Positions 33,336 to 34,515 of a DNA stretch of 37,604 bases are shown here, one piece after another. Every line of letters starts with the position of its first letter. The stretch's first letter is position 1. The DNA is from a virus. The notes below the pieces were generated by a model. The model saw only the letters and a program-made list of their open reading frames with translations. It had not been told where the DNA came from and made no database searches. Location: the UHGV virus genome UHGV-0126502; one strand, given 5' to 3'. A program made the position numbers and the translations under genes.

Positions 33336-33600
33336 AAGCCTTATCGAAAAGCACCTCGTCGCCGAAGTGAAAAAGGCTGGCGGGGTCGCCTTTAAGTTCG
33401 TGTCACCCGGTCGCCGCTCGGTACCGGATCGCATTGTCCTGCTACCCGGCGGTCGCATCGTCTTTGTCGAATGCAAAGCGCCAGGCAAACCACCACGGCC
33501 TGACCAGTTACGCGAGCATGAACGTCTGCGAAAGCTGGGCTTTACCGTGGTGGTGCTGGATAGCAAAGAGCTTACTGAAGTATTACCGCGAGCTCCCTAA
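33316..33600 (+). CDS. VRR-NUC domain nuclease
   Basis: 94 aa with the compact PD-(D/E)XK core (RIVLLPGGRIVFVECKAPG); usual companion of SNF2 helicases in phage replication modules. Confidence 0.7.
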   Translation: MMAYERESLIEKHLVAEVKKAGGVAFKFVSPGRRSVPDRIVLLPGGRIVFVECKAPGKPPRPDQLREHERLRKLGFTVVVLDSKELTEVLPRAP

Positions 33601-34515
33601 CTGAGTTTTTCGAAAGTTATCAGCGATTCTTGCTGCCTCAGAGCGCCCACCAGGCAATAAACCAGCTTTACCAAGAATGTAATTTGGGAATTTAGTAGGT
33701 AGGTACTCATGACGGAACCAACGACGAAATTCTGGTAAAGCATCATTGGGGTATGCCTGAATCATCTGTGGGTTCGAAGCTGCTTGGTTAAAATCATCCG
33801 GATAATGGTGCGCACACTTTACACGTTCTCCAAATTTTTCAGACAACCCTCTAGCGCTCCAATGTTTCGCCCAGCAGGAACCTACACTGATATCAGGTAC
33901 CGTATACATATTAACTACGAGACCCGCGGTAATCAAATCAACCATCAAACCTGCAATTTCATTAAAAACAATAAAATACCCATCCGGTACAGCTCCCGTA
34001 CTTTGAATAAGAGAGACCCGGTCATGATAGTGGCGCCATGGATCTTCTGGCTGGTAATGTAACGCACCATAAATATAATCGCGGAGACCAACACGTGCTA
34101 GTTCACGATAGTATTGCTGAGCGGTCGCATTCGACGCTGTTTGTGATTCAAATGCGTAAAACTCCAGCAGTGCCATGCAGACAATATCTGGAAACGCATA
34201 ATGGACAGACCCATTACGCATAATCGGTATAAATAGTACTGGTTCACGGTAACCAGCCTGCTGCAGATAAGTACTTATAAACTCCATTCGCCCACGGGTG
34301 AATACGCCACTTGCAAAACATTGTGCGTATTCCGTTGCAATATCTGCAATATTTGTTCGATTTACACCGCAAATTCTCGCCAAACCATTCTGAGTAAGGT
34401 ACGGAATTCCGTTCTCCAAAACGCCCATTTCGATATCATTAAAAACCCCTTCCTGCTTGACACCAAGATCTAAGACCGCGCGGGGTGTGGGCTGAGGCTG
34501 ACTCTGTGCATTCAT
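33583..34515 (-). CDS. Reverse-oriented 310-aa protein of unknown function (moron)
   Basis: ATG with AAGGAAA RBS; opposite strand to the operon; markedly AT-richer than flanks; N-terminus has an HTH-like segment (LTQNGLARICGVNRTNIADIA). Confidence 0.6.
   Translation of the reverse strand: MNAQSQPQPTPRAVLDLGVKQEGVFNDIEMGVLENGIPYLTQNGLARICGVNRTNIADIATEYAQCFASGVFTRGRMEFISTYLQQAGYREPVLFIPIMRNGSVHYAFPDIVCMALLEFYAFESQTASNATAQQYYRELARVGLRDYIYGALHYQPEDPWRHYHDRVSLIQSTGAVPDGYFIVFNEIAGLMVDLITAGLVVNMYTVPDISVGSCWAKHWSARGLSEKFGERVKCAHHYPDDFNQAASNPQMIQAYPNDALPEFRRWFRHEYLPTKFPNYILGKAGLLPGGRSEAARIADNFRKTQLGSSR

What the first reader, a model, noticed from the sequence alone, without database searches (positions are those of the whole stretch)
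33583..34515. Reverse-oriented AT-rich 310-aa gene between the VRR-NUC and helicase genes
This gene is on the opposite strand to the operon, has its own strong RBS and is clearly AT-richer than its flanks. Its N-terminus has an HTH-like segment and the rest is unrecognised. Opposite-strand inserts in early operons are typical sites for antirepressors or anti-phage cargo expressed in the lysogen.
Basis: partly seen in the sequence, partly recalled or inferred. Interest (0 to 1): 0.6.

Follow-up and report, generated by a model that had tools for sequence, protein, structure and literature searches.

The report
BstA abortive-infection gene in a prophage
The reverse-oriented, AT-rich 310-aa gene is a full-length member of the known BstA family of prophage-encoded anti-phage (abortive infection) proteins, carried as a swappable 1-kb cargo cassette in an E. 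coli prophage, so it is real but already catalogued.

Summary
A 310-aa ORF lies at 33583-34515 (-), between a VRR-NUC nuclease gene and an SNF2 helicase gene. It has an AAGGA ribosome-binding site, and its GC is 45% (GC3 37%) against 52-57% in its neighbours.

It is not unrecognised. It matches the BstA models of PHROGs (E 3e-105) and PADLOC (E 1e-115) over its full length and is 38-39% identical to BstA of Salmonella phage BTP1. The window is an E. coli prophage (100% identical to UPEC 26-1). The same gene in strain NCTC9022 is already listed among the 72 BstA homologues of Owen et al. 2021, but this allele has never been tested.

The gene sits in a ~1.06-kb variable cassette. Of 263 E. coli genomes matching the junction, 11 carry this allele and 15 carry a 63%-identical allele. 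Others carry methyltransferases, an Arc/Rha module or small unknown genes. Unlike BTP1, the gene is about 8.6 kb from the repressor gene.

The expected self-immunity DNA element (aba) is only weakly recognisable. Two degenerate half-sites (AGCTCTCA and AGCCCACA) lie 57 bp apart around the start codon. That 56-57 bp spacing proved to be family-wide.

Verdict: known defence gene, low novelty.

The parts
33583..34515 (-). bstA coding sequence, 310 aa plus stop
   Evidence: ORF. PHROG phrog_6287 'BstA abortive infection system', E 2.9e-105, residues 13-307. PADLOC BstA PDLC02356, E 1.4e-115, residues 12-304. 38-39% identity to BstA of BTP1. PGAP names it 'BstA C-terminal domain-containing protein'.
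34063..34461 (-). N-terminal putative DNA-binding domain (residues ~19-151), with the HTH at residues 42-69 (34309-34392)
33631..34062 (-). C-terminal BstA_C domain (residues ~152-295), presumed effector domain of unknown mechanism
34524..34530 (-). Ribosome-binding site AAGGAAA
   Evidence: Read from the sequence. The block ATAAGGAAATCA(A/T)TAAG is conserved in clade relatives and in a BstA-Ec-type locus whose protein is only 34% identical.
34482..34550 (-). Candidate aba (anti-BstA self-immunity) DNA element, -35 to +34 relative to the ATG (inferred)
   Evidence: It occupies the same position as the experimentally defined 63-bp aba of BTP1, -29 to +34 (PMC8585504). The phylogenetic footprint in the clade is 0.83 for -31..-1 and 0.86 for +22..+34, against 0.59 further upstream and 0.65 for +1..+21.
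34543..34550 (-). Upstream half-site AGCTCTCA (-35..-28) of a degenerate direct repeat
   Evidence: At offset 57 it pairs with AGCCCACA, 6 of 8 matches. Relatives at 85-91% identity mostly have AGCCCTCA here. The pairing is not significant on its own.
34486..34493 (-). Downstream half-site AGCCCACA (+23..+30), followed by CCCCGC
   Evidence: CACCCCGC lies at nearly the same distance from the ATG as the essential 3' CCCGCC repeat of the BTP1 aba.
34516..34618 (.). 103-bp divergent intergenic region between bstA and the SNF2 helicase gene; the promoters are presumed to lie here
   Evidence: No consensus sigma-70 site was found by the scan. TATAAA boxes lie at -24..-19 and -70..-65 on the bstA strand.
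33568..34636 (.). Variable cargo cassette of ~1.06 kb: the last ~30 nt of VRR-NUC, bstA, the intergenic region and the first ~10-18 nt of the helicase gene
   Evidence: Homology to relatives with other cargo (L001, L077, L078) ends at 33567-33573 and resumes at 34629-34637.

Best explanation
The gene is a BstA-family abortive-infection (Abi) defence gene carried as accessory cargo by a temperate E. coli phage integrated next to yfhL.

Shown here: full-length family membership, a two-domain build (an N-terminal HTH/KilA-N-like DNA-binding domain plus a C-terminal BstA_C domain), purifying selection, cassette-like presence or absence at the VRR-NUC|SNF2 junction, and orientation against the early replication operon.

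Inferred from the experimentally studied homologues (BTP1, E. coli NCTC10963, K. pneumoniae 52.145; PMC8585504): the protein is made in the lysogen. When a heterologous phage infects, BstA goes to the replicating phage DNA and blocks its replication. The infected cell dies without releasing progeny, which protects the clonal population and the prophage.

Also inferred: when the prophage itself is induced, a short DNA element overlapping the RBS and start codon of bstA (aba; candidate 34482-34550) neutralises its cognate BstA as its copy number rises. The carrier phage can then replicate. The candidate element has two degenerate half-sites, AGCTCTCA and AGCCCACA, 57 bp apart.

My confidence that this is a BstA family member is about 0.97. 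That it confers Abi-type defence, about 0.75. That 34482-34550 is a working aba, about 0.45.
For: PHROG BstA, E 2.9e-105, and PADLOC BstA, E 1.4e-115, both over the whole protein. tblastn to BTP1 BstA gives 39% identity over 91% of the length, E 5e-59. An alignment with three other BstA proteins has 85 invariant columns spread over both domains. PF26567 BstA_C is recorded on the identical protein cluster.

The same gene in NCTC9022 (99.9% identical locus) is listed in Table S1 of Owen et al. 2021 at LR134237 1366652-1367500.

Prophage context: integrase, excisionase-like HTH, CI/Cro pair, lysis and head genes, with attachment next to yfhL. pN is 0.11-0.27 against a saturated pS.

The cassette boundaries are at ~33570 and ~34630. 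This allele is in 11 of 263 E. coli genomes that match the junction. A 63%-identical bstA allele sits at the same place and in the same orientation in 15 others. Relatives at 74-91% identity occupy the same junction in Yersinia and in viral contigs.

For aba: the conserved blocks -31..-1 and +22..+34 coincide with the BTP1 aba span. Direct repeats spaced 56-57 bp around the start codon are a family-wide feature. In genome contigs, 31 locus-offset hits in 72 loci score >=7 at offsets 56-57, against a median of 1 per other offset. In 60 distinct viral-contig regions, 24 score >=7 at offset 57, against a median of 0.
Against: This allele has no experimental data, and it is only 34-39% identical to relatives of the tested BstA proteins.

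The gene is not downstream of the repressor as in BTP1; the CI-like gene is ~8.6 kb away. Lysogenic expression therefore cannot be assumed from repressor co-transcription, and the promoter scan found no consensus sigma-70 site.

The aba-type direct repeat is weak here. It matches 6 of 8 at offset 57, scoring 3 where many loci score 7-16. Within the clade, offset 57 only ties with two other offsets. In BTP1, single-base changes in either repeat abolish aba function.

The C-terminal domain has no recognisable fold relative, so the effector chemistry is unknown. Pfam-A and NCBIfam, as installed here, gave no hit.
Confidence: 0.85

Rival explanations
1. It is an antirepressor or KilA-N/Bro-type regulator that takes part in the lysis-lysogeny switch of this or a co-resident prophage, not a defence protein.
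For: The N-terminal domain is an HTH-containing, KilA-N-like DNA-binding fold, with weak structural hits to antirepressor, Bro-N and KilA proteins. In some relatives the same junction holds an Arc/Arc/Rha-family regulator module.
Against: No Pfam hit to KilA-N, Bro-N, ANT, Rha or P22_AR at E<=1. The whole protein, including the C-terminal half, aligns with BstA at E~1e-105 to 1e-115. Three BstA proteins at 40-48% mutual identity were all shown to be Abi defences (PMC8585504).
Confidence: 0.04
2. It is a component or regulator of the phage's own replication module, for example an origin-binding protein, needed for lytic growth of the carrier phage.
For: It lies inside the replication gene block (DNA polymerase A, VRR-NUC, SNF2 helicase) and has a DNA-binding domain. 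In one phage lineage, across Escherichia and Yersinia, it keeps this position.
Against: Most relatives lack it. Of 263 E. coli genomes matching the junction, only 11 carry this allele and 15 carry the 63%-identical allele. Isolated phages of the family (vB_EcoM-606R2 and others) carry unrelated genes there. A relative at 81% identity sits in an unrelated smpB-adjacent island. Its GC and orientation differ from those of the operon.
Confidence: 0.03
3. BstA is active but its cognate aba is weakened or lost in this allele. The upstream half-site reads AGCTCTCA rather than the AGCCCTCA of most close relatives. The prophage would then partly abort its own lytic growth: a defence gene on the way to domestication.
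For: The window's repeat matches 6 of 8, against 7 of 8 in L092, L094 and the DEC5E type, and 7 of 7 in L081. In BTP1, single-base changes in a repeat abolish aba and cut the induced titre ~40-fold. PGAP marks the prophage's Nmad5 gene as frameshifted.
Against: Which bases matter in this clade is unknown. The two half-sites differ at the sixth position in nearly all clade members, so exact identity may not be required. The allele is 99.6-100% conserved in 11 genomes of diverse origin. All other prophage modules appear intact.
Confidence: 0.08

Closest known systems
BstA-aba system of Salmonella prophage BTP1 (Owen et al. 2021, Cell Host Microbe; PMC8585504)
   Same: Full-length homologue: 38-39% identity, the same length class (310 vs 307 aa) and the same two-domain layout. 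It is prophage-borne. The RBS block is similar (AAGGAAA(A)TCAA). A C-rich CACCCCGC motif lies ~+27..+37 in the coding sequence, where BTP1 has its essential 3' CCCGCC repeat. The conserved 5' block spans the same -31..+34 interval as the 63-bp aba.
   Different: It is not downstream of the CI repressor. Instead it sits in the replication module, divergent from an SNF2 helicase gene and convergent with a VRR-NUC gene, overlapping it by 18 bp. There is no exact terminal direct repeat, only a 6-of-8 pair at 57 bp. The carrier phage encodes its own DNA polymerase A replisome rather than a lambdoid O/P system. The allele is untested.
BstA-Ec (E. coli NCTC10963 type; the same type in O178:H19 2012C-4431) and BstA-Kp (K. 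pneumoniae 52.145)
   Same: Same family, and both were shown to give Abi-type defence with cognate, non-interchangeable aba loci. The Ec-type locus shares the ATAAGGAAATCA(A/T)TAAG start region with the window and has a 57-bp-spaced pair, AAAAGCAGATCCCTACA / AATAGCGAATCCCTGCA.
   Different: Only 34% identical to the Ec-type protein. The Ec type lies directly downstream of a LexA-family CI repressor in a lambdoid prophage.
bstA allele 2 of the same prophage family (WP_001288450; E. coli O55:H7 DEC5E, ETEC H10407, O103:H2 12009)
   Same: Same phage lineage, same attachment region (yfhL), same junction and orientation next to the SNF2 helicase gene. The protein is 63% identical. Its half-sites AACCCACA / AACCCGCA lie at the same -35/+23 positions.
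   Different: A DNA cytosine methyltransferase gene sits between it and VRR-NUC. The intergenic DNA and the first ~8 codons have diverged, as expected if each allele has its own cognate aba.
Lambda RexAB and other prophage Abi morons
   Same: Prophage-encoded cargo that is dispensable for the phage and is presumed to be expressed in the lysogen to abort infection by other phages (discussion of PMC8585504).
   Different: No sequence or domain relationship. Rex is a two-protein membrane-depolarising system located beside cI.

Membership tests
BstA abortive-infection family | Full-length sequence homology to BstA proteins | tested here: met
   PHROG 6287, E 2.9e-105, residues 13-307 of 310. PADLOC BstA, E 1.4e-115, residues 12-304. 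38-39% identity to BTP1 BstA over 91% of the length.
BstA abortive-infection family | C-terminal BstA_C domain (PF26567) | tested here: met
   PF26567.1 is precomputed for the 100%-identical cluster P0001 and for all listed homologues. PGAP's name is 'BstA C-terminal domain-containing protein'. The locally installed Pfam-A returned no hit for this protein.
BstA abortive-infection family | N-terminal KilA-N-like DNA-binding domain with an HTH | tested here: inconclusive
BstA abortive-infection family | Carried by a prophage | tested here: met
   The window is 100% identical to a prophage of E. coli UPEC 26-1 and UPEC957C, with integrase, CI/Cro, lysis and head genes, inserted next to yfhL.
BstA abortive-infection family | Located immediately downstream of the prophage repressor (frequent in the family but not universal) | tested here: not met
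   The CI-like gene is ~8.6 kb away. bstA lies between the VRR-NUC and SNF2 genes on the opposite strand. Of 157 BstA loci examined, 19 share this alternative arrangement.
BstA abortive-infection family | Cognate aba DNA element overlapping the RBS and start codon, with terminal direct repeats | tested here: inconclusive
   The conserved blocks -31..-1 and +22..+34 match the BTP1 aba span. Half-sites AGCTCTCA / AGCCCACA lie at the family-typical 57-bp spacing but match only 6 of 8 and are not significant alone. Function is not testable here.
BstA abortive-infection family | Abortive-infection phenotype: block of incoming phage DNA replication, and constitutive expression in the lysogen | not testable with these tools
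   This needs plaque and liquid infection assays, survival assays and lysogen RNA-seq. The promoter scan found no consensus site.
Antirepressor / KilA-N / Bro-N / Rha regulators | Recognisable KilA-N, Bro-N, ANT, P22_AR or Rha domain | tested here: not met
   No Pfam family at E<=1 and none in NCBIfam. Only weak structural resemblance of the N-domain.

The most novel reading that the evidence does not exclude
The 5' end of this gene is a genuine but degenerate aba, and the aba element has a general architecture that has not been described. It consists of two variant-specific half-sites (loose consensus G(G/C)C(A/C)CC-like; AGCCCNCA in this clade), always 56-57 bp apart start to start, bracketing the RBS and start codon. 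That would suggest BstA reads its own gene's 5' end as a spaced pair of sites. Cognate immunity specificity could then be predicted from sequence. The window's allele, with an extra C->T in its upstream half-site, would be a natural test of how much degeneracy self-immunity tolerates.
Probability: 0.4. Interest if true: 0.5.

Novelty: already known. Interest (0 to 1): 0.25.

Why it matters
As an annotation, it turns a 'hypothetical protein' into a probable anti-phage defence gene of uropathogenic and other E. coli prophages. This is relevant to phage-therapy host range.

The gene itself is already catalogued in Owen et al. 2021 Table S1 and in the PADLOC, PHROG and PGAP models, so the discovery value is small. 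Three points go beyond the catalogue entry.

- **An alternative home for bstA.** In one phage lineage the gene sits in a cargo slot inside the replication module, away from the repressor. Divergent bstA alleles, methyltransferases and regulator modules alternate in that slot.
- **An untested allele.** It is under 40% identical to BTP1 BstA and to an Ec-type homologue, and its recognisable aba is weak.
- **The 56-57 bp repeat spacing.** Seen across about 130 BstA loci, it gives a concrete, testable handle on how aba DNA neutralises BstA. The original paper left that question open.

Tried and rejected
- **Profile libraries.** Pfam-A and NCBIfam scans of the protein gave no hit. The family is only in the PHROG and PADLOC libraries and in the precomputed PF26567 annotation.
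- **Promoter and terminator.** The sigma-70 scan of 33300-34800 found no promoter. The only terminator-like sites are inside coding sequence and at chance level. The promoter and terminator of bstA are therefore not located.
- **Exact repeats around the start codon.** The best is CTCAG at 50 bp (p~0.9). GTATAAA x2 and a TCAGCC tandem are also at chance level. An inverted pairing, GGGTGT / ACACCC, is exact in L081 and L083 but 5 of 6 in the window. It is too short to evaluate.
- **Clade-level test of offset 57.** It only tied with offsets 47 and 64, so I do not claim significance for the window's half-sites by themselves.
- **Extra copies of the 5' motifs in the window.** None of note.
- **Literature on BstA/aba mechanism after 2021.** Only citing papers were found.
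- **Replication-module hypothesis.** Rejected on presence/absence grounds.

Full report
**1. The observation**

Upstream on the + strand are a family-A DNA polymerase gene, a small ANR/PerC-like gene, a DUF7446 gene and a 94-aa VRR-NUC/PD-(D/E)XK nuclease gene. Downstream are an SNF2-type helicase gene, an HTH_17/AlpA-like gene and, on the - strand, a tyrosine integrase gene.

The mechanical ORF list starts the helicase gene at 34520, but PGAP starts it at 34619. That leaves a 103-bp divergent intergenic region. The 3' ends of the ORF and of VRR-NUC overlap by 18 bp.

The gene has 45.2% GC (GC3 37%), against 52-57% (GC3 53-61%) for its neighbours. An AAGGAAA ribosome-binding site ends 8 nt before the ATG.

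Against relatives, the non-synonymous difference is 0.11-0.27 while synonymous sites are saturated at 0.77-0.87. It is therefore a real gene under purifying selection.

**2. What it is**

Pfam-A and NCBIfam, as installed here, gave nothing. Two other libraries match it end to end:
- PHROG family phrog_6287, 'BstA abortive infection system, replication inhibitor', at E 2.9e-105.
- The PADLOC BstA model, at E 1.4e-115.

tblastn against phage genomes finds BstA (st313-td) of Salmonella phage BTP1 at 39% identity over 91% of the protein (E 5e-59), plus homologues in Pseudomonas and Klebsiella phages. An alignment with BTP1 BstA and two other E. coli BstA proteins shows invariant residues across both halves.

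In the large protein collection, the identical cluster and all 120 best homologues carry the precomputed Pfam domain PF26567, BstA_C. Newer RefSeq records name the gene 'BstA C-terminal domain-containing protein'.

**3. Origin and prior knowledge**

The window is an E. coli prophage, 100% identical to UPEC 26-1 and UPEC957C and 99.9% identical to NCTC9022. The PGAP map of the identical locus shows:
- head, terminase, lysis and Q-antiterminator genes, a VapE primase gene and a Cro-like gene on one strand;
- a CI-like repressor gene followed by the DUF2800/DUF2815/Nmad5/DNA-polymerase...helicase block on the other strand;
- the integrase gene next to yfhL.

Table S1 of Owen et al. 2021 (PMC8585504) lists E. 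coli NCTC9022 LR134237 1366652-1367500 among the 72 representative BstA homologues. Those coordinates fall inside the NCTC9022 copy of this very gene. The gene is therefore already catalogued, although only the BTP1, NCTC10963 and Kp52.145 proteins were tested experimentally. The window protein is 38-39% identical to BstA of BTP1 and 34% identical to an Ec-type protein.

**4. What the family does (from the paper)**

This is taken from the paper and not shown here. BstA is expressed from the prophage. It co-localises with the DNA of an infecting phage, prevents that phage's DNA replication and aborts the infection at the cost of the cell.

The carrier prophage escapes through aba. This is a 63-bp DNA element made of 29 bp upstream plus the first 34 bp of bstA. 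It has terminal CCCGCC direct repeats and acts as DNA, in high copy. Single-base changes in either repeat destroy its function. Each BstA variant has its own cognate aba.

The molecular mechanism of both BstA and aba is open. I found no later mechanistic paper.

**5. Structure**

An AF2 model from a 30-sequence alignment has mean pLDDT 82.6 and pTM 0.77. It shows two parts.

The N-terminal alpha/beta domain covers residues ~19-151 and has an HTH at 42-69. Its best solved-structure matches are weak and are small DNA-binding domains:

Foldseek against viral models gives weak hits to antirepressor, Bro-N and KilA proteins. This is compatible with the 'KilA-N-like' label but does not prove it.

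**6. Cargo status**

Homology to relatives carrying other genes at this junction stops at 33567-33573 and resumes at 34629-34637. This defines a ~1.06-kb cassette that even supplies the last ~30 nt of VRR-NUC and the first ~10-18 nt of the helicase gene.

Of 263 complete E. coli genomes that match the 3-kb junction query, 11 carry this allele at 99.6-100% identity. Fifteen others, including O55:H7 DEC5E, ETEC H10407 and O103:H2 12009, carry a 63%-identical bstA allele in the same place and orientation, together with a Dcm methyltransferase gene.

Other occupants of the junction are:
- Dcm plus a 106-aa reverse-strand gene of unknown function;
- an Arc/Arc/Rha-family regulator module;
- two small forward-strand genes in the isolated phages vB_EcoM-606R2, -689R2 and -611R5.

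Relatives at 74-91% protein identity sit at the same VRR-NUC|bstA|SNF2 junction in a contig carrying the protein NCBI names from Yersinia mollaretii, and in viral and metagenome contigs. One relative at 81% identity lies in an unrelated smpB-adjacent integrase/YagK-YfjJ/DUF3987 island with unrelated upstream DNA.

Unlike BTP1 and the Ec type, this bstA is not downstream of the repressor.

**7. The self-immunity element**

I extracted the 5' regions of 72 BstA loci from genome contigs and looked for direct repeats at every offset from 20 to 110 bp.
- Offsets 56 and 57 stand out: 17 and 14 loci score >=7, against a median of 1 and a maximum of 6 at any other offset.
- Some pairs are long and exact, such as TAACTCCGGCCACCCC (16 of 16) and AAGTCCGGCCACC (13 of 13).
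- The BTP1 CCCGCCA pair falls at offset 56, as published.
- The result repeats in 60 distinct viral-contig regions: 24 score >=7 at offset 57, against a median of 0 and a maximum of 5 elsewhere.
- An Ec-type locus also has a 57-bp pair.

The main text of the paper mentions the repeat only for BTP1.

The window is not among the clear cases. Its best exact repeat is at chance level (CTCAG, 50 bp apart, p~0.9). At offset 57 it has only AGCTCTCA (-35..-28) against AGCCCACA (+23..+30), 6 of 8.

Homologous positions in clade relatives show the same pair in better shape:
- AGCCCTCA / AGCCC(A/G)CA, 7 of 8, in L092 and L094;
- AACCCACA / AACCCGCA, 7 of 8, in the DEC5E type;
- GGTTACA / GGTTACA, 7 of 7, in L081.

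Within the clade, however, offset 57 only ties with two other offsets.

Independently, the phylogenetic footprint of five diverged clade members has two conserved blocks, -31..-1 (0.83) and +22..+34 (0.86). They are separated by variable codons 2-7 (0.65) and preceded by unconserved DNA (0.59). Together the two blocks span almost exactly the BTP1 aba interval.

I therefore mark 34482-34550 as the candidate aba, with moderate confidence.

**8. Expression**

No consensus sigma-70 promoter or nearby terminator was found by the scan. TATAAA boxes lie at -24..-19 and -70..-65 on the bstA strand. Lysogenic expression is an inference from the family and from the gene's orientation.

**9. Verdict**

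The gene is a member of a known, already catalogued family, so novelty is low.

Three points are of residual interest:
- the non-canonical location, in a cargo slot of a replication module where bstA alleles alternate with other cargo;
- the weak aba in this allele;
- the family-wide 56-57 bp spacing of the aba-type repeats, which is a side result and needs tree-aware confirmation.

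Noticed in passing
L005-L076 and L086-L165 (5' ends of bstA homologues); window 34482-34550: Direct repeats that bracket the bstA start codon are spaced 56-57 bp start to start in a large share of about 130 independent loci. In 72 genome-contig loci, 17 score >=7 at offset 56 and 14 at offset 57. In 60 distinct viral-contig regions, 24 score >=7 at offset 57. The median at other offsets is 0-1. The repeat sequences are variant-specific, for example TAACTCCGGCCACCCC, CAGGTCGCCCCCCC, TTTGGTCACCA and BTP1's CCCGCCA. This generalises the aba terminal repeat, which the paper's main text describes only for BTP1.
   Followed up: partly
L009, L010, L011, L014, L047 (alphaproteobacterial loci) and the ~340-aa homologues: In the longer (~340 aa) BstA homologues, the reading frame stays open upstream of the RBS-preceded ATG and encodes a conserved 'FDxV...' N-terminal extension. 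Both copies of the 57-bp (19-codon) repeat then lie inside coding sequence, for example ITPATP...LTPATP. Whether the constraint is on DNA or on peptide is unresolved there. Loci with 56-bp spacing cannot be peptide repeats.
   Followed up: no
window 33568-34636; L001, L004, L077, L078: The VRR-NUC|SNF2 junction of this prophage family is a cargo hot-spot. Alternatives are this bstA allele, Dcm plus a 63%-identical bstA allele, Dcm plus a 106-aa reverse-strand gene (phrog_28127, unknown function), an Arc/Arc/hypothetical/Rha-family module, or two small forward-strand genes.
   Followed up: yes
window 30453-30722 (-): A second reverse-oriented, AT-rich (GC ~0.40) small ORF of 89 aa, hydrophobic and membrane-like, lies between the Nmad5 and DNA polymerase genes. 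It has no PHROG hit. Relatives carry different reverse-strand genes at the same spot: a 209-aa phrog_10579 protein in DEC5E, and DUF4145 or UCP028583 proteins in L079, L083 and L084. This suggests a second cargo slot.
   Followed up: partly
window ~29733-30385 (+): PGAP annotates the Nmad5-family nucleotide-modification gene as frameshifted in the identical prophage of UPEC957C. It is the only sign of decay noticed in the prophage.
   Followed up: no
L006:5001-5927 and flanks: A BstA protein 81% identical to the window's lies in an smpB-adjacent island with an integrase, a YagK/YfjJ protein and a DUF3987 protein. It is not in a phage replication module. Its upstream DNA and first ~12 codons are unrelated to the window's, so the coding body has moved between elements without the 5' region.
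   Followed up: partly
window 34516-34533; L085 (Ec-type locus); L005 (BTP1): The stretch ATAAGGAAATCA(A/T)TAAG just before the ATG is almost identical in the window and in a BstA-Ec-type locus whose protein is only 34% identical. It resembles BTP1's ACAAGGAAAATCAA. That is more conservation than an RBS alone would need. It lies inside the aba interval.
   Followed up: no
L001:2068-2829 (phage vB_EcoM-606R2): A TIR-like-domain gene is inserted between the DNA polymerase gene and the ANR-family gene in the related isolated phages. It is probably another defence or counter-defence cargo gene of the same phage family.
   Followed up: no
window 34520-34618: The six-frame ORF list extends the SNF2 helicase ORF to a TTG at 34520, which would put it 4 bp from the bstA start. 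PGAP's start at 34619 fits the homology break and is preceded by GAGG. The longer ORF is an artefact.
   Followed up: yes
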